From: Candidatus Chisholmbacteria bacterium RIFCSPHIGHO2_01_FULL_52_32
Lineage (GTDB): Bacteria > Patescibacteriota > Microgenomatia > UBA1400 > Chisholmbacteraceae
Length of the DNA stretch: 64,000 nucleotides
NCBI GenBank assembly: GCA_001816585.1
Contig: MHCJ01000003.1
Coordinates: 82,100-146,099, forward strand
Direction of reading: 5' to 3'
The notes beneath the pieces were generated by a model. It did no database searches, was not told where the DNA came from, and saw nothing but the letters and a program-made list of their open reading frames with translations. Made by a program: the position numbers and the translations under genes. Positions 696 through 59,346 of the stretch are shown here, one piece after another (position 1 is the first letter of the stretch; each line of letters begins with the position of its first letter).

Positions 696-2030
696 TCAGA
701 CTTTCTGTAGCGTTAATAGCGTATTGAGGATGTTCTGGGCCCCGCTTAAGAAAAGCGTATCGAGATTTAAGGCTTGCTCAATTGCATGGGCAAACCAGGT
801 TTCGTGGTCATGAAGGGCGGGCTGTTCGAGGGCTTTGAGCTGGCTTTGGAAGGTTTCAGGGTTAGCCCGGCGGGCGATGCCTTTTTGCTCGAATGTTTCC
901 TGGATGCGTTCCTCCCACTCGCCCCATGGTTCCATGAGAAGGAGGAAACAGCCGGCTGCAGCCGAGTCGTACGCCATATCTCCGGAAGGTTTGGTGATTA
1001 CCCCATCGGCCCAAGGGAACATCCAAGAAACGAGTTTCTCATTGGCGTCCATAATGTTGTTTCCCCGAAGGATGCGGTAGGTGGCGGTTTGATCAAACTC
1101 GTTTCCGACGGCGATTTGGTGGGCGTTTGCAAAGAGCCCGAACATGGCGGCGAAGTCCTCGTGGGTTCCGGCATAACAGACCAGCTGAATTCTTGGTGGT
1201 GTGGCGGTGAGGTGGGGGAGGAGTTGGTTTAAGATCAATTCAATCTCGCCTTTGTTCGTGCCAAGGCCCCCAGTAGTAATCCCAAGGCGGAGGCTCGCTT
1301 CGATGGGGGACGGATGGGTGAAGCGCTCAACAAACTTATCTACGGACTTGGTTTTGCGGGCTTCGACGATACGCGGATCGACCGGCGGGCCGGTAACGTG
1401 GACGCGGTCGGCATCGAGGGTTTTCCTCTCACGCTGGGCTCCCTCAAGTAGCTCGATCTTGGTTTTGTCGTCAAAAACAGCAAAACTGAGATTGTTCTTG
1501 TCGGCATTCTTGAGGTACTGGGGGCGGACGTGGGGGTCGGTGACGGCCTGGAGGACGGTTTTACCAGCGTCAACGAGGAGGTTTCCGGTTTCGTAATGGA
1601 AGGAGGCGATGGGGCGCGTGACGTTTTGAAAAAAGAAAAGCAGCGGCTCCTTGATGGCGTCGGAGATGGGGAGCTTTTCGCGGGCCCGGGTATCGATGAT
1701 GCCCTTGATTTTTTTGAGGAGTTCATGTCGGGCGACGGCTTCGGCAATTTTCTCGGTCATGACGACTTTTTGCCAATCCTCAGCAGCGACGAAGTTCGTC
1801 GGATCAACGAACCAGAAGGTTTTGTCACTGTGGGCCGCGGTCACGAGGAGCGAGAGCGCTTGGGAGTAGTGGGCGCGGGAGAAGACGATTTCCTCTCTTT
1901 TAAACTTATACGCATACTCCTCGCCGATCTGGTCGAAGGCGGTGGCGGAGACGGTGGCGATGGGAACTTCGGCTTCTTCAAGAAGTTTGCGTTCTTTTTC
2001 GAGGATGGTTTGGAGCTCTGGGTCCATCAA
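696..2030 (-). CDS. GT-B glycosyltransferase (GT28 MurG/MGDG-synthase-like)
   Basis: 444-aa ORF. The C-terminal half has a GT-B pattern (…ADGVITKPSGDMAYDSAAAG…EPWGEWEE…) resembling the MurG/UgtP nucleotide-sugar-binding domain. Judged by eye only. Confidence 0.5.
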   Translation of the reverse strand: MMDPELQTILEKERKLLEEAEVPIATVSATAFDQIGEEYAYKFKREEIVFSRAHYSQALSLLVTAAHSDKTFWFVDPTNFVAAEDWQKVVMTEKIAEAVARHELLKKIKGIIDTRAREKLPISDAIKEPLLFFFQNVTRPIASFHYETGNLLVDAGKTVLQAVTDPHVRPQYLKNADKNNLSFAVFDDKTKIELLEGAQRERKTLDADRVHVTGPPVDPRIVEARKTKSVDKFVERFTHPSPIEASLRLGITTGGLGTNKGEIELILNQLLPHLTATPPRIQLVCYAGTHEDFAAMFGLFANAHQIAVGNEFDQTATYRILRGNNIMDANEKLVSWMFPWADGVITKPSGDMAYDSAAAGCFLLLMEPWGEWEERIQETFEQKGIARRANPETFQSQLKALEQPALHDHETWFAHAIEQALNLDTLFLSGAQNILNTLLTLQKV

Positions 2031-2089: not shown

Positions 2090-2291
2090 GTTCGCACAAG
2101 AGGGCAGATACTTCTTTGCTCACCCAAAGAAGTATCCAAGAAAAGGTGCCCCATGAGCGTTCTTTCGGGAACACGTCTCGCTCACGCAATGCGATCAAAC
2201 TCCTTCGCGTCGAGCACTCGTCAGACAGTTGATCGCTTTTCAATGGTGTTCGCTTTCGCGTGTTCTCGAATAGCTCCGCTCAAAGGGGAAC
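2090..2291. repeat. Copy 1 of a ~200-bp interspersed hairpin element (family also at 22551-22755 and partially at 18100-18180)
   Basis: Long near-identical stretches shared with 22551-22755 (…gaatgacgcccc(a)tgagcg(g/t)tctttcgggaac…gcgatcaaactcct…gatcgctt…cgctcaaaggggaa). Contains a perfect 12-bp hairpin, GATACTTCTTTG…CAAAGAAGTATC. Confidence 0.5.
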
Positions 2292-2367
2292 AGCCAAAAT
2301 ACTAAAGACTAAAGACTAATGACTAAAGACTGAATGCTCAACCCTATACCCTATTCTTTGTTTTGCT

Positions 2368-3759
2368 TTGACGATGAGATTTACATACACTGAATGTATG
2401 GAGAAAGGGAGGTTTTCCGATTTCTTTGCCCGTGAGGATGTGATGGTGGTTTTAACCAGCTCACCTGCGGGGCTGGGACATGTACGGGTCACGGAAGCGC
2501 TGCGCGGGGGGTTGGAGGAAGGGGTGCGGGTGGAGGTGTTGGGACTTGAGGATCAGTCGGCTCAAGGGTTGCATCGGGCGGCAAGCCGAAACGTGATTTT
2601 GCGGGCAGTTATGGAGTTCGTTCAGAACAACCCATTGGTTGAGGAGAGTTTTTCAGAGCTGTATCGGGAGCGGCTGCGAAGAAAAGGCAAGGAAGCCTAC
2701 CATCGGCTGGTTGAGCTGGTCAAAAGACGACGGCCAAAACCCAAAGTGCTGTTGATTGTTTCCACCCATTTCGGTCTAGGATACCAGATAGCTGCGATCA
2801 AAAATAGGCTTGCCGAGGAGTTTAAACTGTGCGTGGTTTTGGCAGTGGTAGTGACCGACGATTCGCCGCAGAAGGTGTGGGGAGTGGTCGGTGCGGATTT
2901 TCTGTTTGTTCCAAGTCTAACCACAAAAGAATCTCTGGAAAGATACATGATGAGAATTACCAGAATTGTGCCGGAGGTGTTTGTAGTGCCGTATCCGGTT
3001 TCCGCAGATTTCTGTCAGCCTTTAACAAACAAAGCGTTTGCCGATCGGAAGTTGCAAGTCAATCCCCGGTTCAAAGAGCCGATGAAGATCATGATTCCAA
3101 TATCCGGTGCAGCCGTCCAATTGAACTATATTGAGGAAATGATTACTACATTAGAAAAGGAGAGGATTGCCGACATAACCGTTGTCTCTAGGGAATCAGA
3201 CTACACAAAACGGTTTTTGTCATGGTGCGGAGAGAGAAAATCGGTACGGGTGGTCGCGGAGATACAGGACCGGGATGTCGTCGCCGGCTATGAGAAGGAG
3301 TATGCCAACTCGGTATTCGGAGTCGAGATTACCAAACCCTCCGAGCAGGCTTTTAAGGCATTGATTACCCCGAAGCAGCGCGGTGGGGTCATCCTTCTTT
3401 TTTCGAATCCGGTCGGAAGGCAGGAGAATGATAACCTGGCGTTTTTGGTGCGGCACGATCTGTTGCCGTCTCCCGCTGATCGGGAGGTTCTCGGGAGATA
3501 TCTTTCTACCGGCGAGCGGAGGCTTATTGACGCAGCATTTTTAGAACGGGCGCAGCATTGGCGGGGGTTACTCCTCCCGTCTTCGGGAAGGGATGCCGGG
3601 AGGGCAATTTTGAAGCTTAGGCAGTGCGGGGTTTTGTCAGCGATGCTTGATTTTTCAGGGTACATGGACCACCCGGAATTGCGCAGCGATGGTGTCAGGA
3701 GGATTTGGAAGAAACTTGCGACAAGGGTGGGGGAGAAGTGCGGGATAGCAAGTAGCTAA
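2368..3759 (+). CDS. GT-B glycosyltransferase-like protein (MGDG synthase/UgtP-like N-terminus)
   Basis: 463-aa ORF. N-terminal 'VLTSSPAGLGHV' resembles the G-loop of MurG/MGDG-synthase family enzymes. Divergent from the upstream glycosyltransferase. The start may instead be the ATG at 2398. Confidence 0.45.
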   Translation: MTMRFTYTECMEKGRFSDFFAREDVMVVLTSSPAGLGHVRVTEALRGGLEEGVRVEVLGLEDQSAQGLHRAASRNVILRAVMEFVQNNPLVEESFSELYRERLRRKGKEAYHRLVELVKRRRPKPKVLLIVSTHFGLGYQIAAIKNRLAEEFKLCVVLAVVVTDDSPQKVWGVVGADFLFVPSLTTKESLERYMMRITRIVPEVFVVPYPVSADFCQPLTNKAFADRKLQVNPRFKEPMKIMIPISGAAVQLNYIEEMITTLEKERIADITVVSRESDYTKRFLSWCGERKSVRVVAEIQDRDVVAGYEKEYANSVFGVEITKPSEQAFKALITPKQRGGVILLFSNPVGRQENDNLAFLVRHDLLPSPADREVLGRYLSTGERRLIDAAFLERAQHWRGLLLPSSGRDAGRAILKLRQCGVLSAMLDFSGYMDHPELRSDGVRRIWKKLATRVGEKCGIASS

Positions 3760-20947: not shown

Positions 20948-21823
20948 ATGATGGTAGGAGCCGAGTCTGCGTCTTCAATGCAGTCTGAACAAAGAACCGA
21001 CCTCTTTTCGGAGCAGTTTGATCTGGCTTTAGCATTTTACGCACTCGACGATGGGACGCAGTCCCGCGAGCGGCACCGGGCGATCGTCCAAGAGATGGCC
21101 GACCGGGCAGTGGAGCTGGCATTGCCCCATCTTGCCCATGTAGTGGAAGAGCAACACGTTTCGCGAGCGGTACTGGTTGCCCCTTTACGGGGTGGGTTGG
21201 GATTGGTCACGCCCAGAACTTTGGGGCGGCTTCGAGGGGCGCTATCCGGGTTTGGGCCGTCTGATGTCTTGGTTGAGCCTTGGGCGGTGGGGGTGAAAAG
21301 GCACCCCGCCCAGGATCGGGCAGAGGTCTACTTTTCCTGCGGTCTTCAACGGGCTGACAATCATGATGCAGCTGCAATTATCCTTGACTTCGGAACGGCA
21401 ACCGGGTTGACGACCGTTGCAGTAGCGCGGGAACTCAAGCAGGCCGGCATTGATTATCGCCGAATGACTTCGATTTCGATGACCTTGGCGGAGAAGGGGA
21501 GGAAGAGGATCCTTGAGTCCTGTATAGATTCCGACGGCCGGCGGATTCAGATTGAGGCAGCGACACGCGCCAACTTGAACGACAAGGATTATGTCTACCA
21601 GATTGCCCCGACGTTCAGTGCTGCTTTTTGTGATGTCAACCCGAAGGATTGGGGAGAACGGATGTGGGGCATGGAAAATACCCATGGTTCACCGGATGTG
21701 CTTCATCATGAGGTCAATGAGTTTATGTACCATTTCTTTCAAACGTTCGAGGGTGTTACGGACTATTCCCAACGGGTGGCTCTCAAGGATTACTACCTCC
21801 GGCAGTACGCTCCTTTAGGGTAG
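20948..21823 (+). CDS. Phosphoribosyltransferase-like domain protein (hypothetical)
   Basis: 'AAIILDFGTATGLTT' resembles the type-I PRTase PRPP-binding motif. The rest is unassigned. Confidence 0.4.
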   Translation: MMVGAESASSMQSEQRTDLFSEQFDLALAFYALDDGTQSRERHRAIVQEMADRAVELALPHLAHVVEEQHVSRAVLVAPLRGGLGLVTPRTLGRLRGALSGFGPSDVLVEPWAVGVKRHPAQDRAEVYFSCGLQRADNHDAAAIILDFGTATGLTTVAVARELKQAGIDYRRMTSISMTLAEKGRKRILESCIDSDGRRIQIEAATRANLNDKDYVYQIAPTFSAAFCDVNPKDWGERMWGMENTHGSPDVLHHEVNEFMYHFFQTFEGVTDYSQRVALKDYYLRQYAPLG

Positions 21824-23675: not shown

Positions 23676-24005
23676 ATGTACGCTTGTGAGCATTGCGGAA
23701 GAGGAGTTCAGGTCGGTCGACATATTCGCCATCATCGCGGTGTTGCCGGAGGACGCTGGAAGCGGAAGGCGCCGGTGACCGGGAGGTTGTGGCTGCCGAA
23801 CCTCCATATGGCCCGCGTCGTTGAGGGAGGGAAGATCCTTCGGCGCAGGCTTTGCACGCGGTGTTTGCGAAGGGCCGAAAGACCCCACCAGGCGCTTGAC
23901 GGCAATTCGAAACCTGTCGATTCTTCCGTTTCCAAAGTTGGAAGCTCCGGCGGGCAGGCGAAACCGAAGCCGGCTCTAGAAACACACGCTGTTCAAACGA
24001 TCTAG
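23676..24005 (+). CDS. rpmB: 50S ribosomal protein L28 with C-terminal extension
   Basis: 'CEHCGRG…VTGRLWLPNLHMARV…RRRLCTRCLRR' matches the L28 'R…PNLH' core. The ORF track starts at a TTG (23655); ATG 23676 with GGGGAG 6 nt upstream was chosen. Confidence 0.55.
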   Translation: MYACEHCGRGVQVGRHIRHHRGVAGGRWKRKAPVTGRLWLPNLHMARVVEGGKILRRRLCTRCLRRAERPHQALDGNSKPVDSSVSKVGSSGGQAKPKPALETHAVQTI

Positions 24006-24102
24006 TGTCTGTTTCGGGGAAACTCCGATATCGTTGAGAGGTTCGACCTTCTGACACTCGAGTTGAAAATCCGAGAGAATAGTGCTATAGTACGTTTCAT
24101 GA

Positions 24103-25848
24103 TTGGATCCAGCCGGAGGGCTGGATTTTTTAGAAGGGAAAATCCCGAGTCTTATGACAGAAAAACCACTTCCTATAGAGATCGAAGAACAAGACAGACA
24201 GATACCAATTACTCCGGAGGGCTTTTTCGATCTTTCCCGGTTCGCTGGTGTCCTACCGGAGAATGTCTGGAATCTCTCCGACGATGAGTTCGCTCTGTGG
24301 GCTGAGAAGCAAGCGAATTTGCAGGAGGGAGAGCCCGTCCTTCTAGCGCGGTTCCATCGACCAAAGCAGGGAGAGTTCGCAGGAAGAATGGTAACCCATG
24401 ATCTTGGGAAGAGCGGCGTGTTGGTGATGGATGAACCGGGAGCGACTACTGAGGTACACCTTCCGTATGTGGTCAAGGTTGTTGGTGAAACCAATCAGTA
24501 TTCCCAGCTGCGTCTGGTGAGAAAGCCCAACCTCGAAGACTGTGTGCGCTATCTTCGACAGCGGGAGGGAAAGGAAAGGAGAATCGAGATTCAGCAGATA
24601 TCCTTTCGTACGATCGTGTCCAGAGAGGATGAAAGCCCTGTCATGGGAAGGGAACCAGGTGGAAGGAAAACGTTTTTGAGAAAAAATCTCTCACCGGAAG
24701 TGAAAAATTCAGTAATTTATTCCGACGATCACGTGGTTGCGGTCGAACCGACCGAGGAGTCAAGGAAATATTCTTTTTGCGTTCCTATTGCCAAAGCGAG
24801 GGTTTGGGAACGAACCTCCGTTTCGGCCGTCCAAGAAAACGGAACACCGATTCCAGTTGTGTCAACTGAGCGCTTTTATGGCATCGACTCAGTGTATACA
24901 GGTGTCAAACGGATCGGTTGGTTTGATTCGCTGGCGAATGTGCTACCAGACCTCTCGCCCGAGAACCAAGCAATCCTGGCACGGTTGTGGAATGTTTATC
25001 GGAGAAAGGAGCTAGACAAGCAGAATAAGGGTGAGGAACTCAAGAAGCAAATCGCGGCAGACAAGCATGAGGCATGGGAAGCTTATGAGGATGGCAGGGT
25101 TGTGGTTGAACGAGATCGTCGGTATCGGGAGATTGGCGAGGATGGGGAAGAACACGATTTTGTGCCGGTTCTTGTTGATGGGGAGCGGTATGATATCGAG
25201 CCGTATTACCCCGACGGAACGCGCACGCGTTATGGCGGAAACTGGAAGGCATATACGGCTGCGGAAGCATTTGCCATCGTTGACAGTGATCGATATTTTT
25301 TAGAGAGTCTGTCGCGGGAAAAAGGGATTCAATTCCAGCCGGGACTGATTGCCGACCTTCGGCCGGATTCGGTTGAGATCGACATCGATCAATTGGCCCA
25401 TGCCCCACAGTACACTACGAATGGCTTTCGTTGGGGAAGGGAGCCGATCGCCAGGGACCATTTCAAAAGATTATTTGAATCAAAGATTGTGGAATTTGAG
25501 AGTAATGCGGTAAAACTCACCCTCGAATTTTCCCCCTGCCTTTACGAGCAAACAACTGTGGGGCAACAAGACGGAGGGATTGAGCCTGTACCGGTTGTCG
25601 AATATCGAGTGGCGTACCTCTTAAGCGATGAGATTGTCCAGTACGATGATCGAATCCTTTGCTTACGTGATCATGTTGAAGAACGGGTAGAGAAGATCCT
25701 GAATAAGGTGTTATCTGAACTCCATAAGCCTGCATGGATTCCTCCAGATGATGGTAGAAAAGTACGCTGGTTGGCAGGACAGGAGTGGGCGTCGTCAGAA
25801 ATTGATGGTGAGGCTGATGATGGAATAAAAGAGGAGAACGAGGTGTAA
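24103..25848 (+). CDS. Hypothetical protein, paralog A of a tandem pair
   Basis: 581 aa. The first ~300 aa parallel the next gene (shared 'F(A/L)LWA…', 'PYVV', 'SLED', '(E/P)(N/E)QAILARLWN'). Confidence 0.55.
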   Translation: MDPAGGLDFLEGKIPSLMTEKPLPIEIEEQDRQIPITPEGFFDLSRFAGVLPENVWNLSDDEFALWAEKQANLQEGEPVLLARFHRPKQGEFAGRMVTHDLGKSGVLVMDEPGATTEVHLPYVVKVVGETNQYSQLRLVRKPNLEDCVRYLRQREGKERRIEIQQISFRTIVSREDESPVMGREPGGRKTFLRKNLSPEVKNSVIYSDDHVVAVEPTEESRKYSFCVPIAKARVWERTSVSAVQENGTPIPVVSTERFYGIDSVYTGVKRIGWFDSLANVLPDLSPENQAILARLWNVYRRKELDKQNKGEELKKQIAADKHEAWEAYEDGRVVVERDRRYREIGEDGEEHDFVPVLVDGERYDIEPYYPDGTRTRYGGNWKAYTAAEAFAIVDSDRYFLESLSREKGIQFQPGLIADLRPDSVEIDIDQLAHAPQYTTNGFRWGREPIARDHFKRLFESKIVEFESNAVKLTLEFSPCLYEQTTVGQQDGGIEPVPVVEYRVAYLLSDEIVQYDDRILCLRDHVEERVEKILNKVLSELHKPAWIPPDDGRKVRWLAGQEWASSEIDGEADDGIKEENEV

Positions 25849-25876
25849 GGTATTAAACGAGAAAGGCTATACTTTT

Positions 25877-26857
25877 ATGGCTGGTATTCGTGAACGCCAA
25901 ACACAATTTCTCGGGAGTGGGGACCGCAACGACCGGGGCGCAGCTTTTGTGATTGCGTCAGATGGCTTTGTCGATCTTTCTCCTTTGGAAACCGCTCTTC
26001 CTACTACACTTCGGGAGCTGCCGGACGAAACGTTTCTCGCATGGGCTGCCGATCGGCCTGAAACCCACGAAGGGCGTGAAGGACGGGATTTTGACGATAT
26101 CGTAACTTTCGTTCGGGGAAGGAAGGGAGATTGGATTACGTTGGACATGAGTAAGCTTGGGATTTTCCGCAGCGAGGTTGAGAATTTAAAAATTGATGAA
26201 GGGGTGCCGTATGTGGTTAATATTACAGGTCGTAATCCCGCAGGGAACAAGGGAAAAGGGGTGTATTTTGTTGATGTCTTACGCCAACCCAGCCTTGAGG
26301 ATCTCGAGATTTATTCGCGGGCGTTGTCAAGGAAGTATAGCACCGGGACTCACCTGCAGCTGATGAGAGATTTTGTGCACGCAGAGTTTTATCCGACGTG
26401 GGATGGAAAAACAGAGGGTTATGTCAGCGGCAGAGGAGGACTTTTTGGAGGCTTTTCCGGACCCTTGAGTCTTGATTGGAGAGCCAAGATTCATCCCGAT
26501 ATTTATACAGAATGGGTCGGAATGGCGAATTTGCGCAGCCATCCGACAACATTTATCCCCGTTTGTGTTGCGAAGGAGTGGGAGCGTCAGAGGGTGACAC
26601 TCCAACGATACCCGTCGTTCGATGATCAGGCTATACCCGTAGTCCAGAGGACAAAATACTGGGGAATTCGTGGGCGTGATGTTAAAACCGTTCCCGTGGA
26701 TTCTTTAGGAGCTTTGGATCGGGTGTCCCGGAGTCTTCCAATACCGGAGCAGGCGATCCTGGCACGGTTATGGAATATCCATTGGCAAGGGCAGGGAGAG
26801 AGACGGGAGCTTATATCTTCGGTTCTTGATCGGCTCAAGAGCGAAAACTTGGAGTAG
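25877..26857 (+). CDS. Hypothetical protein, paralog B of the tandem pair
   Basis: 326 aa, homologous to the N-terminal half of the previous ORF. Confidence 0.55.
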   Translation: MAGIRERQTQFLGSGDRNDRGAAFVIASDGFVDLSPLETALPTTLRELPDETFLAWAADRPETHEGREGRDFDDIVTFVRGRKGDWITLDMSKLGIFRSEVENLKIDEGVPYVVNITGRNPAGNKGKGVYFVDVLRQPSLEDLEIYSRALSRKYSTGTHLQLMRDFVHAEFYPTWDGKTEGYVSGRGGLFGGFSGPLSLDWRAKIHPDIYTEWVGMANLRSHPTTFIPVCVAKEWERQRVTLQRYPSFDDQAIPVVQRTKYWGIRGRDVKTVPVDSLGALDRVSRSLPIPEQAILARLWNIHWQGQGERRELISSVLDRLKSENLE

Positions 26858-27911
26858 TTTTTTCTTTTTCTTCTTTGCTTTTCAACATGTGCGGAAGATG
26901 GTGTTTGAACTCGTTTTGCTTGCACCGATTGAGGACCTTTGAAATGAGCGCATCGGTTTGTTCGGGAGTTTTTTGGGTAAGAGGAGCGATTGTTTGGGCG
27001 ATTTTCTTTGGAGACAAATGTTGATCAAAATGAAGATAAAGGATCGGATCAGCCTCTTCATAAGAAAACCCTAATTCTGCTTCGTCGGTCTGACCTTGCC
27101 ATAAACCTGCGGTTGGGGTTTTGGTGATGATCGCATCGGGAATCGTCAGATATTTTGCGAGTTCGCGGACTTGGGTTTTGTAGAGATGGCGGATGGGCTC
27201 GACGTCGGAGGCTTCATCGCCGAAGCGGGTGTAGTAACCAAGCAGGTGCTCGGAGCGGTTTTCGGTTCCGATAACAAGAGCGTCATGGAGTTTTGCTTGA
27301 TCAAAGATGACTATCATCCGGGCGCGGGCGGCAAGGTTAGCCAGGCGGAGGCGGTTGAGAGATGCTGTCGCATCGGGTGACGCAGTTTGCTTGGTCGCTA
27401 AGGTTAGGTTTGTTGCTGTCTTTTCATCATGAGGAGCTTGCCAGGTTTTCAGCCTGGCCATCGCTCCCTTCGCAAACCGGTCACCCTTTGCTCCTTGTGT
27501 GGGGTGAGTCTTATGGGTTGATGCAAGCGGCGAAAATAGGCTACCCTCGCTTTCCCTTGTTTTAGCGTAGTGGTTAATGATGCGCCAGGTTTTTTGGATG
27601 ATGGCCGTGATGGGGATGATGCTGAGATGTTCCTCCGGGATCTTTGTAAGAGAAAGCAGCGAACGCAAATGTTCGAGGTGGATGGGACCTGAAGCTCGTG
27701 ATGGAAGGTAAATGACATGGAGATGGGTTGGACCGACTGCCTTTGCTGTGAGAACGAGGCTTACTGAGGAATCTACTCCGCCGGAGGCCGCAATCACCGC
27801 TTCGGTTTTGCCCGCATTTTGAACGGTCGCTTTGATGAATGATGAGATTGTCTGTGTTTCTGGTTTGGGATCGATTGTCGGAGGATATTTCTGAGAAAAC
27901 TTCGCCATGGT
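26835..27911 (-). CDS. nadE: NH3-dependent NAD+ synthetase NadE
   Basis: 'AASGGVDSSVSL' PP-loop. The start was trimmed to Met at 27909-27911 (ORF track 28058). Confidence 0.8.
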   Translation of the reverse strand, partial: TMAKFSQKYPPTIDPKPETQTISSFIKATVQNAGKTEAVIAASGGVDSSVSLVLTAKAVGPTHLHVIYLPSRASGPIHLEHLRSLLSLTKIPEEHLSIIPITAIIQKTWRIINHYAKTRESEGSLFSPLASTHKTHPTQGAKGDRFAKGAMARLKTWQAPHDEKTATNLTLATKQTASPDATASLNRLRLANLAARARMIVIFDQAKLHDALVIGTENRSEHLLGYYTRFGDEASDVEPIRHLYKTQVRELAKYLTIPDAIITKTPTAGLWQGQTDEAELGFSYEEADPILYLHFDQHLSPKKIAQTIAPLTQKTPEQTDALISKVLNRCKQNEFKHHLPHMLKSKEEKEKTTPSFRS

Positions 27912-27924
27912 AGAGGATCTCTTC

Positions 27925-28554
27925 TTAATAAAGTTTATGGACTCTAAGGTATTGTAGCACCGCTTTTGGGACAAGGTGGGCAATCGGAAGACGTTTCCCA
28001 ATTCTCTCGCGGATGAGGGTCGAGGAGAGGTTTGTGATGACTTGGTTTGGGGAGTCAAGCAGGGTCATATTGAGAAACTTCAAGTCGTTGGTATAGCCGG
28101 CTCGCGGGTAGATGTAAAAGGGAAGTTGTGAAAGGAGAATCTCCCAGTGGCCCCATTTGGTGAAGCCGCCGAGCTGATCGGAGCCCATTAGGAATGAATA
28201 ATGAATAGGGAATAATGAATTATGGTCGGAGAGATCCATTTTCCTTTGAAGATACTCCCTTTCTGAATGGAGTTTTTGCAGGGCTGCGTAGGTTTCGCCG
28301 GAGAGTCTGAAATCTACTTCTATGGGACAGCATTTTACCTTCGTTTGGACGTTGGGGGAAAGGGTGTTGATGAGGAGGTTTGCCATAGCAAGGCGGTGCT
28401 TGGCAGGGGCGAGGTTTTTTAAGAAGGTATGCTTGAAACAGGGAAGGATCCACAGTTCGTCGATGTTTGGGATGAGCTCAAACGCCTGCTCAATGACGAT
28501 CGCATGCCCAAGGTGCGGAGGGTTGAAACTGCCTCCGAAGAGCGTTATGTTCAT
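27925..28554 (-). CDS. nadD: Nicotinate-nucleotide adenylyltransferase NadD
   Basis: 'LFGGSFNPPHLGH' (H/T)xGH motif. Forms an operon with nadE. Confidence 0.8.
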   Translation of the reverse strand: MNITLFGGSFNPPHLGHAIVIEQAFELIPNIDELWILPCFKHTFLKNLAPAKHRLAMANLLINTLSPNVQTKVKCCPIEVDFRLSGETYAALQKLHSEREYLQRKMDLSDHNSLFPIHYSFLMGSDQLGGFTKWGHWEILLSQLPFYIYPRAGYTNDLKFLNMTLLDSPNQVITNLSSTLIRERIGKRLPIAHLVPKAVLQYLRVHKLY

Positions 28555-28629: not shown

Positions 28630-29370
28630 ATGGAAGATTCTGAACAGAGAAGCGGGAACGGGTTGCCTTCACCTGATCAGCCTCCGGGTCGAACCAGGCT
28701 TTCCGAAGTCATGGAAAAGTATCAGGGGCTGGTGAGGGAGATTTTTTACACCGGTCTTTCTGGAAAGAGAGCTAGGCTTCCGTACGACGATTACAGCAAA
28801 GCTTCCGAGACCCAGCAACAGCAGATCATGCGGGCACTTCATGAGGCAGCCGTTGCGGACGGAAAAAGGATCATTCTTGAAGTTGGGCCGGGGGAGCGTT
28901 TGAGTCCTTTGGAATCTGCGGTCTTTCGGCCGGATACGGTCGTTTTTGCTATTGATCCGTTCTTCGTGCCGAAGGAAACCTATGGTTCCGACCCGGCTCG
29001 CGAACTGACCGAACGTGCAAAGCAGCGAAAGACGTTTGCGGCGTTTTTCGGACTTGCAGCAGAAACCATAGACCCACAACTACGATTTGACCGTGTCCAG
29101 ACGGTCTTCCCCAATGCTTTTTCGCATGTTGAACTTGCCGTCTCTGCCAGCCGATTTGTCAAGAAAGGCGGGGATTTGGTCGTGGTGGTTGACCCGTTGC
29201 TCCACGGTGAACCGACCGCCGAAGACATTGTTGGCGCCCTGCCGAAGGATTTTGAGGCAGCTCTTACGACGATTGATCGGACCCAACTCAAGGATAGGTA
29301 CGGGATATCCGATACTGAATTGGCTCCCGATGCGCGGATGCCGGTCGTTCGGGCGGTTCGGAAATCATGA
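28630..29370 (+). CDS. Hypothetical protein (possible SAM-MTase-like 'ILEVGPGE' motif)
   Basis: 246-aa ORF. The motif resemblance is weak. Confidence 0.45.
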   Translation: MEDSEQRSGNGLPSPDQPPGRTRLSEVMEKYQGLVREIFYTGLSGKRARLPYDDYSKASETQQQQIMRALHEAAVADGKRIILEVGPGERLSPLESAVFRPDTVVFAIDPFFVPKETYGSDPARELTERAKQRKTFAAFFGLAAETIDPQLRFDRVQTVFPNAFSHVELAVSASRFVKKGGDLVVVVDPLLHGEPTAEDIVGALPKDFEAALTTIDRTQLKDRYGISDTELAPDARMPVVRAVRKS

Positions 29371-29396: not shown

Positions 29397-30191
29397 ATGA
29401 GCGAAAAATCACTCTTGCGGTCTGAAGTCGGACAGGGAAGGGCAGTTCCGGAAAGAAAAGAACTGCCGGGAACAGTCGTGGCTGTAGCCTGTATGGATGA
29501 GGCTTTAGGTTATAGTCCTGGGATACTGGTTGCCGGTGTCGGTGGTTCGGCTGTGACCGCGTATGAAACCGGCAATCAAACCTTCTTCCCGGATCAGAAG
29601 CGGAGGTTGGTTGAGCGGGTTCGGCCGGTACTCTACCATTCTCTGGGCAAGATGGCAGATCAACTGGGGCTCGGTTTTGGGGTGACGAGCCATGTCGGAT
29701 GCGGGTGGGCAGGAGTTCAAGGTATCGAGAGCATTTCTATTCCCAGGTTAACCCAAGCGATGTCGTTTGGGTTGGGAAGGGAGTATTTCGGCCACATCCC
29801 GTTTGCAAAAGAACCATCGGCACTAGATAAACCCGGTGTTGCAGCGTATACCAAAAGATCGGCGTCGGACCATTATCACAATGCAGAAAGTATCGTCTTG
29901 ACCGTTGGGGGGTTTATTTCCCAGAACGAGATTGACCGGATTGCCAGCCGGCATGGCAGGCCATTTATTCTCAGCGCTGATTGGTTGAATGATGTCGTCA
30001 TAAGCGGTGGTGATATCCATGAAGCGCTTGATTTTTTAGAGGTTGAAATCAATATCGCAAGAGGGATTGCGGAGGGTGTGGTGAAGCCGGGCGCATTTCA
30101 GATCTTTGATGGGCAGCGGCTTGATACGATGACTACAGTACGGAATCGGGCGTTTGTCCACCGCCTGTTGCAGCGGTTTACCCGGGCATAG
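29397..30191 (+). CDS. Hypothetical protein
   Basis: 264-aa ORF. Confidence 0.45.
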   Translation: MSEKSLLRSEVGQGRAVPERKELPGTVVAVACMDEALGYSPGILVAGVGGSAVTAYETGNQTFFPDQKRRLVERVRPVLYHSLGKMADQLGLGFGVTSHVGCGWAGVQGIESISIPRLTQAMSFGLGREYFGHIPFAKEPSALDKPGVAAYTKRSASDHYHNAESIVLTVGGFISQNEIDRIASRHGRPFILSADWLNDVVISGGDIHEALDFLEVEINIARGIAEGVVKPGAFQIFDGQRLDTMTTVRNRAFVHRLLQRFTRA

Positions 30192-54599: not shown

Positions 54600-56192
54600 T
54601 TGTGTGCTACGTTCTTTCAGATGAGTCTTCGGGTGCGCGGGTGGCCGATCTATTATAAAGATATCCTTCGGGTGAAAGACCCTGATCATCATGTGGGGGT
54701 TTGTTCGTTATGGACGGAGCGGCAGGTGGTTGAGAAGCTCGTCTCGGGCACGCGATACAACCTCATCGGCAACCTCTACAGTGCGCAAGGGATCAATGCG
54801 ATGATCCGAAACATCTTTGCTAACCCTTCGATCCGTACGGTTGTGTTATGGGGAGCGGAGATGAGTTTGTCGGGGCATTCGCTGTTGATGCTGATGAAGG
54901 AGGGAGTGGATGAGGCAAGGCGGATCAAAAACGGGCGAGGGGAGATTGAGGAGGAGATTCCGCTTCCTGTCGTTGACCAGTTCCGAAAGGTGGTTGAGGT
55001 GGTTGATCTGCGGGGAAGGGATCGGGATTTCCTCGTTGCCACACTTCGGCAGTTGGATAAAGTAAAGAAGCCGCCATTTGCACGAAAGCCAAAACTCTTT
55101 CCTAAATCGGAACCGAAGACTACGATGTTTCCGAGCGAGAGTGTTGGGTTTCGGGTATCCGGAACAAAGGTCGCCAAGACGTGGCTTAAGCTTCTCAATG
55201 AGATCTACAAATATGGAAAACCCAAGCATACGCGTTACAGCAGGGATAACTCGATTCGTGAGATTTTGAATCTGACGGCGGTTGTCACCGATGAGGACCC
55301 CGAGAAGATTTATTTTCCCTCTTACCTTCCGTTTTCCGAGACCGAACTTATCGCGTACTATGCTGAACTGTTGACGGACCGGCAGATTCCGGGAGTCGCC
55401 TACAACTATGGGAGAAGACTGCGCAGGGAGCTGGGGGTGGATCAGATTGCCAAGATGAAGGAGCTTGTTAAAAAGCGGCCGGCATCCAAAAAAATGGCAG
55501 CCTTCACCGCGGACGTGAAGAAGGATTGGGGAGCGGTGCATAAGGGTGACACGCCGTGTTTGACACAAATATTAGGAAGCATCTTCGAAAAACGGTTTTA
55601 CATGACTGCCCATTTTCGGAGCCAAGACATGGTGCACGGTTGGCCGCGGAATGCCTTTGCCCTTCGGAAACTGCAAAAAGAAATTGCGGATGCTACCGGC
55701 TATAGAATGGGACCGCTGACGGTTATTACCCACAGTGCGCACATCTACGGAGATGACTTTTTGCTGGTTGAAAATCTTCTCATGGATCATTACGAGAAAG
55801 AATTGGGCTTCTCGCCGGCCGTTCATTTTACCTTTGATCCGCGCGGCAATGTGGTGATTGAAATTGTGAGTATGAAAGAAGCGCTGCAATTTCATGAATA
55901 CTCCAAACGTTATGAAAAGGGGGCAGTTCCTTTTGCCGTTTCACAGACGCTGAAGCGGCTGCCCAAGCGGGGGAGAAATTCCGGCAAGCTCATCCGGGCG
56001 ACGCTGTTTGCTCCGGACGGCGGCGCACCTCTCAAAATATTTGAAGGAAGAACAGCACAGGAAGTGGCATATCAAATTGCCGATTGGGGATATCTTTCGG
56101 ATCCCGCGCACGCGATGTATGTCGGCCAGGAACTGCAGCGGGCGGAAGAGGCGATTGTTCGTGGCGGGAGGTATCACCAGGATCCGGCGTGA
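54600..56192 (+). CDS. Thymidylate-synthase-family (ThyA/dUMP- or dCMP-hydroxymethylase-like) enzyme with ~150-aa N-terminal and ~110-aa C-terminal extensions
   Basis: Central ~270 aa align by eye to ThyA: 'TRYSRDNS' ~ DRTGTGT; 'YNYGRRLR' ~ YG.QWR; 'GDTPCLTQI' ~ LAPCH (catalytic Cys); 'HFRSQDMVHGWPRNAFAL' ~ YQRSCDVFLGLPFNIASY (Arg-Ser…Asp and Asn retained); 'HSAHIYGDD' ~ THLYSNH. The flanking extensions have no recognisable motif. The start may be Met at 54621. Confidence 0.7.
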   Translation: MCATFFQMSLRVRGWPIYYKDILRVKDPDHHVGVCSLWTERQVVEKLVSGTRYNLIGNLYSAQGINAMIRNIFANPSIRTVVLWGAEMSLSGHSLLMLMKEGVDEARRIKNGRGEIEEEIPLPVVDQFRKVVEVVDLRGRDRDFLVATLRQLDKVKKPPFARKPKLFPKSEPKTTMFPSESVGFRVSGTKVAKTWLKLLNEIYKYGKPKHTRYSRDNSIREILNLTAVVTDEDPEKIYFPSYLPFSETELIAYYAELLTDRQIPGVAYNYGRRLRRELGVDQIAKMKELVKKRPASKKMAAFTADVKKDWGAVHKGDTPCLTQILGSIFEKRFYMTAHFRSQDMVHGWPRNAFALRKLQKEIADATGYRMGPLTVITHSAHIYGDDFLLVENLLMDHYEKELGFSPAVHFTFDPRGNVVIEIVSMKEALQFHEYSKRYEKGAVPFAVSQTLKRLPKRGRNSGKLIRATLFAPDGGAPLKIFEGRTAQEVAYQIADWGYLSDPAHAMYVGQELQRAEEAIVRGGRYHQDPA

Positions 56193-56827: not shown

Positions 56828-58111
56828 GTGAGTGGTGTTGTTGAGCGCAGAAGCCTAACTGAGACTGGCGCGAGATTGGTTGAGGAGTTGATTCCGGATG
56901 AGGGATTGTCGCTTGATATTCGGGAAGAGATTCATACCGTTTCAACCGGGTTTCGCATCCTCAAGACCGAACCTTCCTCGAGTTTCTCGGCTTTTCTTGG
57001 GAAGAACTACCCCAAAGTTTCCGATGCTTTTTCCGGTGAGATAGTCCTGAAGTCCTGCGGAAAAACGGAGCATTCGTTTTTCCATAATGACGGACCGATC
57101 GGAGAGATGACGCTTGCAATGGAGACGGATGTCGATCTTCGGCAATCAAGCGTTGGCATGCCTTCAAGCTTTGGGGTTGCCTATATGAGTGCTTCGCGCG
57201 GGCCACGCAGACAGGCTGTCCTTACCTCAAGTCGGGTACGGGGAAGCGAACCCTGTGTCGTTATGCCACAGTTCCCTGTGGGCTCATCACTGTCTGAGAT
57301 GTATACCTCTTTCACTCCGTCTTCAACGGCGGAACAGGAAATTGCGCGCACTCTACTTAAACGGCTATTTTCCATGAAACGTCCGGTTTCCCAGGATGTG
57401 GCTGAGACGTACGGTTCTGTCCCGGCAACCCTTGGGCTTATCCGCGATGAACGGATGCAGAGATTTGAGTTTGAGGATCCCCTGTTTTCCGAACAGGCAA
57501 GGGTTGTTAACCGGGCTTTGGAGAGGGCGCTTCTTGGGCAAGAAATGGGAGTGTTTCTTGCCGATGAGATCCGTGCCGGCCGGGTGGGGGAGCAACATGG
57601 GGACGCGCGGGCGTTTGATAACCTCCACTTCGTGCGGAGGAAAGACGGAGGTATCGAGGCATTCATACGCGATCCGGTGCGCTTGAGCCGGAAGACCAGC
57701 GGGGGGCCCAAGCTCATGCGGGAGTGGTTCGTTACTCATGATGATTTGCAGGCCGGGATGCTGATCGGCGGTCCTTTTGTCCAAGAGCGATTTCACGGAT
57801 TCGTACGGAATCTCATTACCGCGTATATGGATTCTGACCCTCAGAACCGGGCAATTCTTACCAACCCTCTGCGTTCTCAGCTGTTTGGGCTCGGAATCGC
57901 ATACGGGGTAAGCATCGACCTTGCGGTTGCCAACTACCATCGCAGAGATCTTGAACATCGCCTTGATACACTCCGGCATTCTGATTCCGGCCGGGGAACT
58001 GAGGAAATAGACGCCCAATTCAATGAGCGCGTACGACTGATGGATCGGTATTGGGATAGCCTCGCGTTTTTGGCCGAAACCGATTTTGTCGGGTGGAAGG
58101 AGGCCTTATGA
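56828..58111 (+). CDS. Kinase-fold protein (APH/ePK-like catalytic-loop motif 'HGDARAFDNLHF…IRDP')
   Basis: 427 aa. 'HGD…N' followed by 'I(R)DP' resembles the HGDxxxxN…IDxE catalytic core of aminoglycoside/choline-kinase-like phosphotransferases. Overlaps the next gene by 19 nt. Confidence 0.45.
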   Translation: MSGVVERRSLTETGARLVEELIPDEGLSLDIREEIHTVSTGFRILKTEPSSSFSAFLGKNYPKVSDAFSGEIVLKSCGKTEHSFFHNDGPIGEMTLAMETDVDLRQSSVGMPSSFGVAYMSASRGPRRQAVLTSSRVRGSEPCVVMPQFPVGSSLSEMYTSFTPSSTAEQEIARTLLKRLFSMKRPVSQDVAETYGSVPATLGLIRDERMQRFEFEDPLFSEQARVVNRALERALLGQEMGVFLADEIRAGRVGEQHGDARAFDNLHFVRRKDGGIEAFIRDPVRLSRKTSGGPKLMREWFVTHDDLQAGMLIGGPFVQERFHGFVRNLITAYMDSDPQNRAILTNPLRSQLFGLGIAYGVSIDLAVANYHRRDLEHRLDTLRHSDSGRGTEEIDAQFNERVRLMDRYWDSLAFLAETDFVGWKEAL

Positions 58112-59346
58112 ATGTTGAGGCAAGACCGATCGGTACGGAGCGCCACATTCCGGCCCGTATTGAGCAGCTTGGAGGTTTACGACGGATCGGGCCGATTGAG
58201 GTTTCCCGGGATCTTACCTATGAGCCGGAAGGTGCGGCGATCGGTTTGCATGAGACTTTGTCCGACGACCCGACTTCCACCGGAAGATTGGTTCGGTTTC
58301 TCGCAAACGGAGAGGATTTCGGGGTGAAGACATGGCTCGACCAGGGACATGGGTTCCTGCAATTTTCGATGCCATGGCAACGCCTGTGGTCGCTGGCGGC
58401 GGAGTGCCAGAAAGCCCAGGAAGGACAACGCGATTGGAGTGAGGGCAGCCGAACCCATCTCGGATTGGTCGGTGTGCGCCGGATGGGTGAGGGTCGAGTT
58501 GAAGTTTCGGACGCCTCAACCATTGACGGGGGAGCGGTTGATCCGGGGCTTCTCATGCGTTGGCTTCCCAGCGAGACGAACCTGCCGACGATACTTGTGA
58601 ACGATCCGGAGCGTTTCGTACGTCTTGTGCCGAGGGCGATTATGGCAATTGCCGATAATGAGGTTGTGCTTTCCCCGGAGGAAGGCTTGCGGCTTGGGGG
58701 GGCGGAGGGGATTCGCTTTTGGATTGACAAGGGGAATCTCGGTGCGCTTCGGACCGATTTTGATCCGGCGGCGCGCAGGTTTGCGTCGGAATTTTGGGAG
58801 TCGTTTTCGGGATTTATTGATCGGTTTGCTCCTGTCCTTAATCAACGTGCCTTGGCCGGCAATATCGTTTGGGGGAACGGAGATACCAAGCCGTACAACA
58901 TGTTTGAGGTGGACGGGCGTGTCGGGATCATCGATCCGATCACGCTTCTTTTAAAGACCGGCAGTAGAGGGGAGTACACCCTTGCGCCCTGGCCGTTTCG
59001 GGATCGGATTTCCGAGCTGGCGTATTTTACCTGCTACTTTCGGGCGGGTGAGCGCTTGGTGGGGTCGGCCGACCGCTTCGTTTACGATCGAGCCATTGCG
59101 ACGTACGAGCAGCTCCACGGAGAAGCGGTTTCGGAGGGTCCCGGCCGGGCCCTGCTTTCATTCCATGAAGCGGCTCTTTCGCAGGTCGAGTTTGAGGTCA
59201 ACCTTCGTTTGTCCCGTGATCCTGGTTGCCGGGATAGCGCGATGCGGCAGGAGTTGGCTTGGGCGCTTGAGGAGGAAGCCCTCGAGGCGATCGGGGATGC
59301 CCATGTTCAAGCTTCAGACAGCGGACTTGCAAACGTGGCCTTGTAA
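58093..59346 (+). CDS. Kinase-fold protein (APH/ChoK-like; 'NIVWGNGDTKPYNMFEVDGRVGIIDP')
   Basis: 417 aa. Degenerate 'GNGD…N…IIDP' catalytic-loop/DxG-like pattern. Translationally coupled to the previous gene. Confidence 0.5.
   Translation: MEGGLMNVEARPIGTERHIPARIEQLGGLRRIGPIEVSRDLTYEPEGAAIGLHETLSDDPTSTGRLVRFLANGEDFGVKTWLDQGHGFLQFSMPWQRLWSLAAECQKAQEGQRDWSEGSRTHLGLVGVRRMGEGRVEVSDASTIDGGAVDPGLLMRWLPSETNLPTILVNDPERFVRLVPRAIMAIADNEVVLSPEEGLRLGGAEGIRFWIDKGNLGALRTDFDPAARRFASEFWESFSGFIDRFAPVLNQRALAGNIVWGNGDTKPYNMFEVDGRVGIIDPITLLLKTGSRGEYTLAPWPFRDRISELAYFTCYFRAGERLVGSADRFVYDRAIATYEQLHGEAVSEGPGRALLSFHEAALSQVEFEVNLRLSRDPGCRDSAMRQELAWALEEEALEAIGDAHVQASDSGLANVAL

What the first reader, a model, noticed from the sequence alone, without database searches (positions are those of the whole stretch)
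24103..26857. Tandem paralogous genes of an uncharacterised family sharing the '(E/P)(N/E)QAILARLWN' signature
The 326-aa protein (25877..26857) is homologous along its length to the first ~300 aa of the 581-aa protein just upstream. Shared blocks are F(A/L)LWA(E/A)…EG(E/R), PYVV, SLED and …QAILARLWN(V/I). No known domain was recognised by eye. The pair sits between rpmB and nadE. A locally duplicated, diverging family of unknown function is a candidate for a lineage-specific system, possibly host-interaction or nucleotide-related.
Basis: seen in the sequence. Interest (0 to 1): 0.5.

Follow-up and report, generated by a model that had tools for sequence, protein, structure and literature searches.

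The report
Lineage-restricted paired OB-fold proteins, function unknown
Two neighbouring genes in an uncultured groundwater bacterium (Candidatus Chisholmbacteria) are old paralogues of a tiny protein family found almost only in that lineage; their predicted structure contains small beta-barrels of the OB/S1 type, the kind that usually bind RNA or single-stranded DNA, but nothing else about their role is known.

Summary
ORF A (24154..25848, 564 aa; 581 aa from TTG 24103) and ORF B (25877..26857, 326 aa) are collinear paralogues: 28% identity over about 298 aa, E 6e-17. All the shared motifs are present. The pair lies between rpmB and convergent nadE/nadD.

No Pfam, NCBIfam, PHROGs, PADLOC or PDB-sequence match exists. 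An exhaustive profile search of 1.84 billion representative proteins found only 19 members. Named members are all Candidatus Chisholmbacteria. A 746-766 aa form occurs in an unidentified 37% GC lineage.

The family keeps the rpmB-nadE position in at least seven distinct loci. Copy number and form vary there: about 300 aa short, about 560 aa long. B has orthologues in other genomes (bootstrap 100), so the duplication is old, not recent.

The proteins have no signal peptide or membrane segment, and no conserved catalytic-looking residue set.

Best reading (about 0.4): soluble, non-enzymatic OB-fold proteins that bind nucleic acid, probably RNA. This is an uncharacterised family of moderate interest.

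The parts
23676..24005 (+). rpmB (ribosomal protein L28), the conserved upstream neighbour of the family locus
   Evidence: Pfam PF00830, E 2.6e-9. Called as 109 aa in GCA_001816955.1. rpmB is also directly upstream of the family locus in L016, L018, L022 and L060.
24063..24091 (+). Promoter-like site (TTGAAA, 17-nt spacer, TG-TATAGT) just upstream of gene A
   Evidence: Consensus scan, 10 of 12 matches with an extended -10 TG. This is a consensus match only, not shown to function.
24154..25848 (+). Gene A, long form (subtype L-I), 564 aa; the ORF extends to TTG 24103 (581 aa)
   Evidence: ORF. 564-aa form P0002 in public assemblies. Family profile E 1.4e-178. AlphaFold2 mean pLDDT 84.7, pTM 0.69.
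24328..24918 (+). A residues 59-255: beta-rich core of the shared N-module. It comprises barrel 1 (59-125, PYVV at 104-107), barrel 2 (144-215, strand/helix order beta-beta-beta-alpha-beta-beta) and a three-strand meander (216-255, WER at 218-220).
24967..24993 (+). Signature QAILARLWN in A (residues 272-280), at the start of a 44-residue helix (269-312)
   Evidence: The motif is conserved in short and roughly 560-aa forms and degenerate in the 746-766 aa forms.
25090..25788 (+). A residues 313-545: C-module present only in long forms (mixed alpha/beta, conserved LP[ED]H[IV]xxR[IV] near residue 504-511, acidic, pI 4.8)
   Evidence: Alignment A2, conservation list, charge table, model. No fold-search hit could be attributed to this module.
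25877..26857 (+). Gene B, short form (subtype S-I), 326 aa: the N-module plus a short conserved C-terminal helix (RRELISSVLDRLKS)
   Evidence: ORF. P0001, identical in 23 contigs. Family profile E 1.5e-85. Groups with P0005, P0006 and P0010, bootstrap 100. GAAAGG lies about 10 nt upstream of the ATG and the gap after A is 28 nt.
26750..26776 (+). Signature QAILARLWN in B (residues 292-300)
26835..27908 (-). nadE (NAD synthase), convergent, overlapping the 3' end of B by 23 nt; the conserved downstream boundary of the locus
   Evidence: Pfam PF02540, E 9.4e-57. Called as 357 aa. The same boundary is seen in L011, L014/L022, L016, L023, L024 and L060.
27925..28554 (-). nadD-like cytidylyltransferase, context only
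   Evidence: Pfam PF01467, E 3.2e-17

Best explanation
A and B are two anciently diverged members of a small protein family restricted to Candidatus Chisholmbacteria (Microgenomates, CPR) and one other unidentified lineage. Both are soluble cytoplasmic proteins.

The shared module of about 290 residues has three parts: an acidic N-terminal helical segment, two small beta-barrels of the OB/S1 type plus a beta-meander, and a capping hydrophobic helix that carries the signature LPxxEQAILARLWNIYW. The long form continues this helix into a highly charged stalk of about 30 residues and adds an acidic alpha/beta C-module of about 230 residues.

I infer that the barrels bind single-stranded nucleic acid, most likely RNA. 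I also infer that the proteins act as non-enzymatic binders, chaperones or adaptors, because no conserved catalytic-type residue set exists. The signature helix would then be mainly a structural core element, and possibly an interface through which long and short forms associate.

Shown: paralogy, family limits, conserved locus, variable copy number, purifying but relaxed selection, a confident fold model, and domain-level OB/S1 similarity.

Inferred: nucleic-acid binding, RNA as the ligand, and A-B association.
For: - Paralogy: E 6e-17.
- Family size: only 19 proteins at E<=1e-3 among 1,835,955,588 representatives. Named members are Candidatus Chisholmbacteria. Only one true hit among 185,579 GTDB species representatives with the motif pattern.
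- Locus: a conserved rpmB-[family]-nadE position in at least seven distinct loci, holding 1-3 copies.
- Real genes: dN/dS about 0.38 for L-I orthologues and about 0.23 for a strain variant of A. The model rises from pLDDT 31 with 2 sequences to 84.7 with 18, which fits a real coevolving fold.
- Foldseek best hits are NusA, bS1 and the multi-S1 protein sp_0946 in PDB, and LEF-3 (a multi-OB ssDNA-binding protein) and a phage S1 in BFVD.
- Residues 145-214 of the model have the canonical OB order beta1-beta2-beta3-alpha-beta4-beta5.
- No TM or signal-like segment in any member.
- Conserved positions are almost all F/W/Y/G/P/L.
Against: - No member matches S1, CSD, TRAM or any other Pfam model even at E<=1, and no PDB sequence match exists.
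- The barrel segments are only neutral to mildly basic, and long forms are acidic overall (pI about 5).
- A itself has lost the otherwise conserved W of the GExWxG strand (R193).
- Adjacency to rpmB may be purely historical, and a promoter-like site separates them.
- The C-module has no recognised analogue.
Confidence: 0.4

Rival explanations
1. The OB-like barrels serve protein-protein or other non-nucleic-acid binding. On this reading the family is a lineage-specific structural or scaffold component, for example of a cytoplasmic assembly, with long and short forms as alternative subunits.
For: - Long forms are acidic and the barrels are not strongly basic.
- Conservation is almost wholly hydrophobic and structural.
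- A long charged helix joins two modules.
- Long+short pairs of matching subtypes recur: L-I+S-I in three loci, S-II+L-II in two.
Against: - Most structural neighbours are RNA-binding S1-type domains.
- No partner or assembly is identifiable.
- Pairs are not obligatory. Single long forms occur in L022 and L011, and a single short form in L024.
Confidence: 0.25
2. The locus is a conflict or defence-type cassette array. Each unit would be a small helical ORF of about 105 aa plus a multi-OB sensor or effector protein, fast-evolving and with copy-number turnover. The window genome would retain only the large components.
For: - In relatives each family gene is often preceded by its own small ORF of a related family (A5).
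- Copy number and subtype differ between close genomes, and a decayed copy exists in L016.
- dN/dS of about 0.38 is high for a bacterial core gene.
Against: - No PADLOC or PHROGs match.
- No relatives in the phage, plasmid or IMG/VR collections.
- The position is fixed between housekeeping genes in every Chisholmbacteria-like locus, and at least one copy is always kept.
- There are no mobility genes nearby.
- The window and L018 lack the small ORF, which a toxin-antitoxin logic would not tolerate.
- No enzymatic effector motif is present.
Confidence: 0.1
3. The ORFs are decaying or non-functional remnants: B would be a truncated pseudogene copy of A.
For: - B corresponds only to the first half of A.
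- A genuine remnant of another copy exists in L016.
Against: - B is intact and identical in 23 contigs from many samples.
- It has full-length orthologues of the same length with their own conserved C-terminal helix in at least three other genomes, bootstrap 100.
- Selection is purifying.
- The coevolution signal is strong enough to give a confident fold.
Confidence: 0.03

Closest known systems
S1 / cold-shock / TRAM-type OB-fold RNA-binding domains (e.g. NusA S1, ribosomal protein bS1, exosome Rrp4/Rrp40/Csl4, RNase R/II, IF1A)
   Different: No sequence-profile match to any of these families in any of the 18 members. The N-terminal acidic helices, the beta-meander, the signature helix, the charged stalk and the C-module have no counterpart. 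Whole-chain TM-scores are about 0.1.
Multi-OB single-stranded-DNA-binding proteins (baculovirus LEF-3, Teb1/RPA-like)
   Different: TM-score is only 0.09-0.14 with very large rmsd, and there is no sequence similarity. The biological context differs: a chromosomal locus beside rpmB in a CPR bacterium.
Uncharacterised UniProt/GenBank entries of Candidatus Chisholmbacteria (OGY16692.1 / A0A1G1VMT2, OGY21348.1; the window's own A3F04_01680)
   Same: These are members of the same family, all labelled hypothetical or uncharacterised.
   Different: They carry no functional information. One JGI label, 'YeaO (DUF488 family)', on a member (P0027) is not supported by Pfam.

Membership tests
S1 RNA-binding domain / OB-fold nucleic-acid-binding proteins | Sequence match to the S1 (PF00575), CSD or TRAM profile at or near the curated threshold | tested here: not met
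   No such hit for A or B at E<=10, nor for any of the 18 family members at E<=1.
S1 RNA-binding domain / OB-fold nucleic-acid-binding proteins | Structural superposition on solved S1/OB domains | tested here: met
S1 RNA-binding domain / OB-fold nucleic-acid-binding proteins | Closed five-stranded barrel with beta1-beta2-beta3-alpha-beta4-beta5 topology | tested here: inconclusive
   The secondary-structure order of residues 145-214 fits. Model coordinates and aligned ranges were not available for inspecting barrel closure.
S1 RNA-binding domain / OB-fold nucleic-acid-binding proteins | Binds single-stranded RNA or DNA | not testable with these tools
   Only indirect evidence: barrel segments are neutral to mildly basic, and the whole long form is acidic.
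Any curated protein family (Pfam-A, NCBIfam) | Profile match above the gathering or curated cut-off | tested here: not met
   The only hits are noise, such as FN3_IL27B_N at E 0.28.
Known anti-phage defence systems (PADLOC-DB) | Match to a defence-system protein model | tested here: not met
   No hit at E<=1.
Phage or plasmid proteins | Homologues in phage, plasmid or viral-contig collections, or in PHROGs | tested here: not met
   PHROGs best hit is E 0.22. tblastn against INPHARED and PLSDB gives no match. The IMG/VR scan gives none.
Type II toxin-antitoxin-like two-gene module (small upstream ORF plus larger protein) | Obligatory adjacent small partner gene | tested here: not met
   The small ORF family (A5) is present in L016, L022, L023, L024 and L060. 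It is absent from the window and from L018.
DUF488 / YeaO (the label JGI gives to member P0027) | Match to the DUF488 profile | tested here: not met
   No Pfam hit for the near-identical P0004 or any other member at E<=1.

The most novel reading that the evidence does not exclude
The rpmB-nadE interval of Chisholmbacteria holds a previously undescribed, fast-turnover cassette array. Each cassette would be a small helical protein plus a multi-OB protein, in co-diverging long/short pairs. Together they would form a lineage-specific RNA-binding or ribosome-associated module, for instance doing part of the job of an S1-like mRNA-binding factor in these reduced genomes. The C-module would be a new fold.
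Probability: 0.12. Interest if true: 0.6.

Novelty: new variant of a known kind. Interest (0 to 1): 0.3.

Why it matters
CPR bacteria have small genomes, yet a large share of their genes has no known function. This family is a clean example.

- It is always present at one conserved chromosomal position next to a ribosomal-protein gene in Chisholmbacteria.
- It is under purifying selection, though relaxed.
- It has expanded into long and short paralogues.
- It now has a confident structural model that points to nucleic-acid-binding barrels.

If it proves to be an RNA-binding or ribosome-associated factor, it would add a lineage-specific component to CPR translation or RNA metabolism. If not, it is one more well-delimited family of unknown function. 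It does not bear on a long-standing open question as it stands.

Tried and rejected
- Word-index homology searches with B, A and the 18-sequence alignment returned only self hits or one relative. The exhaustive HMMER search was what found the family.
- The genome-contig scan with the A/B alignment found nothing. A degenerate DNA pattern for Q-x-[IV]-L-A-R-[LF]-W-N-[IV] gave 34 hits, about the number I estimated for chance, of which one is real.
- AlphaFold2 with only A+B failed, with pLDDT 31.
- The afdb50 fold library was unavailable, so no comparison with predicted structures of cellular proteins was possible.
- Pfam, NCBIfam, PHROGs, PADLOC and PDB sequence searches gave nothing.
- Rfam found only an unrelated tRNA in the window.
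- Internal-repeat test: barrel 1 against barrel 2 gives hhalign P 22%, E 1e-3, which is suggestive only. No other segment pair is related.
- Secreted or host-interaction role was rejected for lack of any hydrophobic N-terminus or TM segment.
- Pseudogene origin of B was rejected.
- A toxin-antitoxin reading was rejected because the window lacks the small ORF.
- Taxonomic naming of the 746-766 aa lineage through neighbouring proteins failed, because none carries an organism name.

Full report
**1. The observation**

The window carries two co-directional ORFs. A runs 24103..25848 (581 aa from TTG, or 564 aa from ATG 24154). B runs 25877..26857 (326 aa).

BLASTP of A against B gives E 6e-17 and 28% identity over 298 columns, collinear over A 36-304 and B 26-312. 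Within the 64-kb window each protein finds only the other (E about 1e-14); all remaining tblastn hits have E > 0.6.

The neighbours are as stated: an M50 peptidase (-), rpmB (+), then A and B, then convergent nadE and nadD. nadE overlaps the end of B by 23 nt.

A promoter-like site (TTGAAA, 17-nt spacer, TG-TATAGT) ends at 24091. Most public gene calls start A at the ATG at 24154. B follows after 28 nt and has a GAAAGG upstream.

**2. Source and family limits**

B is identical to 'hypothetical protein A3F04_01680' of a Candidatus Chisholmbacteria MAG from Rifle groundwater (GCA_001816955.1, contig MHCM01000003.1, 1.16 Mb). The same locus occurs in 23 contigs from several samples.

A and B have no hit in Pfam, NCBIfam, PHROGs or PADLOC. 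Word-index searches found only the proteins themselves.

An exhaustive HMMER profile search of 1,835,955,588 representative proteins found 19 proteins at E<=1e-3, including A and B. They fall into these groups:
- Long forms of 541-575 aa.
- Short forms of 274-326 aa.
- Extra-long forms of 746-766 aa.
- One 97-aa fragment.

None of 18 members matches any Pfam family at E<=1 in a consistent way. The family profile finds no PDB sequence.

Named members are all Candidatus Chisholmbacteria. A degenerate DNA pattern for the motif, scanned over 185,579 GTDB species representatives, gave 34 hits. That is close to the roughly 35 I estimated for chance, and only one hit is real: Candidatus Chisholmbacteria RIFCSPLOWO2_01_FULL_49_14.

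There are no relatives in the phage, plasmid or IMG/VR collections.

**3. The locus in relatives**

The family occupies the same interval, between rpmB and convergent nadE/nadD, in every Chisholmbacteria-like contig recovered. The content of that interval varies:

| Locus | Content |
|---|---|
| window | rpmB, L-I (A), S-I (B), nadE |
| L023 / L012 | small ORF, L-I, S-I, nadE |
| L013 | L-I, S-I |
| L018 | rpmB, L-I, L-II |
| L011 | L-I, unrelated 73-aa ORF, nadE |
| L022 / L053 / L014 | rpmB, small ORF, L-II, nadE |
| L016 and L060 | rpmB, small ORF, S-II, small ORF, L-II, nadE |
| L024 | small ORF, one short form, nadE |

L016 also carries a roughly 100-aa remnant of an S-I-type copy.

The small ORFs (104-119 aa) form a family of their own (alignment A5). 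They are absent from the window.

The extra-long forms lie in a different, mutually syntenic context (Nramp, SIMPL, thioredoxin-like, P-type ATPase). They sit on 37% GC contigs of an unidentified organism.

**4. Age of the duplication and selection**

A neighbour-joining tree was built on the shared module.
- B groups with P0005, P0006 and P0010, bootstrap 100.
- The S-II short forms and the extra-long forms each form their own clades, both at bootstrap 100.
- A's position among the long forms is unresolved.

The S-I short forms also share a C-terminal helix, RRELISxVLxxLKS. The A/B duplication therefore predates the divergence of these genomes, and B is a stable short paralogue rather than a recent truncation.

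Nei-Gojobori estimates give dN 0.145 and dS 0.38 (ratio about 0.38) for L-I orthologues. A strain variant of A shows 4 non-synonymous against 5 synonymous changes (ratio about 0.23). Selection is purifying but relaxed.

**5. Structure**

With only A and B as input AlphaFold2 failed, at pLDDT 31. With the 18-sequence alignment it gave mean pLDDT 84.7 and pTM 0.69, with 331 residues at or above 90.

Elements of the model, in order:

| Residues | Element |
|---|---|
| 27-56 | acidic helices |
| 63-123 | beta-barrel-like segment, ending in PYVV strands |
| 127-136 | helix |
| 145-214 | strands and one helix in the order beta-beta-beta-alpha-beta-beta |
| 217-253 | three long strands |
| 257-266 | helix |
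| 269-312 | 44-residue helix; starts with the signature motif and continues as a highly charged stalk |
| 316-542 | mixed alpha/beta C-module |

Foldseek against PDB found nothing at E<=1e-3. Its best hits were again NusA, bS1 and the multi-S1 protein sp_0946. Against viral models the best hits were LEF-3 (E 1.9e-4) and a phage S1 (E 7.9e-4), with TM about 0.1.

The afdb50 library was not available. The tools do not report aligned ranges, so placing the OB similarity in the shared module rests on the strand order of the model.

**6. Other properties**

- No member has a transmembrane or signal-like hydrophobic segment.
- Conserved positions are nearly all F, W, Y, G, P or L. The few conserved polar positions are D129, N280, H507 and R511, and they do not form a recognisable catalytic set.
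- Long forms are acidic (pI about 5). Short forms are neutral to basic. The barrel segments are neutral to mildly basic, whereas the N-terminal helices and the C-module are strongly acidic.
- Barrel 1 and barrel 2 show a weak profile-profile similarity (P 22%, E 1e-3).

**7. Interpretation**

The best-supported reading (about 0.4) is a soluble, non-enzymatic family of OB-fold binding proteins, most likely binding single-stranded RNA or DNA. The signature helix would be a structural core or interface element. Long forms would carry an additional acidic module on a charged stalk.

The position beside rpmB is conserved, but a promoter-like site separates the two genes. The adjacency may therefore be historical only.

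Rivals:
- A protein-binding scaffold role for the barrels (about 0.25).
- A conflict-type cassette array of small ORF plus OB protein (about 0.1). A fixed housekeeping position, the lack of any defence or mobile-element signal, and the absence of the small ORF from this genome all weaken it.
- Pseudogene remnants (about 0.03), which the evidence already contradicts.

**8. Comparison and novelty**

By sequence the family belongs to no described family. By predicted fold it resembles tandem S1/OB proteins at domain level only. The overall architecture and the C-module have no recognised analogue in PDB or BFVD.

I file it as a new variant of a known kind (OB-fold binding proteins), not as a member of the S1 family, because the sequence-profile criterion was tested and not met.

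Interest is moderate to low (0.3). The family is well delimited, lineage-specific and now structurally tractable. However, CPR genomes are rich in such families and nothing here contradicts expectation.

Noticed in passing
L022 9494..9814; L023 576..890; L016 911..1246 and 2220..2558; L060 2435..2794 (plus a frame-split copy at 901..1264); L024 52..366: A second small family of helical ORFs (104-119 aa, no Pfam hit) sits immediately upstream of family members in related genomes, sometimes one per family gene. It is absent from the window and from L018.
   Followed up: partly
L016 2575..2880: A remnant of about 100 aa from an S-I-type copy (profile positions 202-296, E 2e-18) lies between the S-II and L-II genes. 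It is evidence of copy turnover in the locus.
   Followed up: partly
L015 3327..5627; L025 10001..12244: Extra-long (746-766 aa) family members carry an additional C-terminal region of about 200 aa. They lie on 37% GC contigs (one of 941 kb) in a different, mutually syntenic context (Nramp, SIMPL, thioredoxin-like, methyltransferase, P-type ATPase). The organism was not identified.
   Followed up: partly
window 54600..56192 (+): A 530-aa ORF combines MtrA-like, thymidylate-synthase-like and pterin-binding DUF4346 domains, an unusual fusion.
   Followed up: no
window 28630..29370 and 29397..30191 (+): Two ORFs (246 and 264 aa) without any Pfam hit lie between nadD and fmt. The same interval holds different genes in related genomes (L022, L023), so it is a second variable spot.
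   Followed up: no
window 2368..3759 (+), 696..2030 (-), 56828..58111 (+), 58093..59346 (+): Four large ORFs (417-463 aa) have no Pfam hit at E<=1e-5.
   Followed up: no
window 20948..21823 (+): A 291-aa ORF has a sub-threshold uracil phosphoribosyltransferase-like hit (23.3 bits against a cut-off of 27). It may be a divergent PRTase.
   Followed up: no
P0027 (JGI member of the P0004 cluster; the same gene as L011 225..1973): JGI labels this family member 'YeaO (DUF488 family)'. Pfam gives no support for the label in the near-identical P0004, so it looks like an annotation error.
   Followed up: yes
window 26835..28058 (-): The mechanical nadE ORF (407 aa) is 50 aa longer than the public call (357 aa). 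The NAD_synthase match is split into two stretches, which suggests an insertion within the domain.
   Followed up: no
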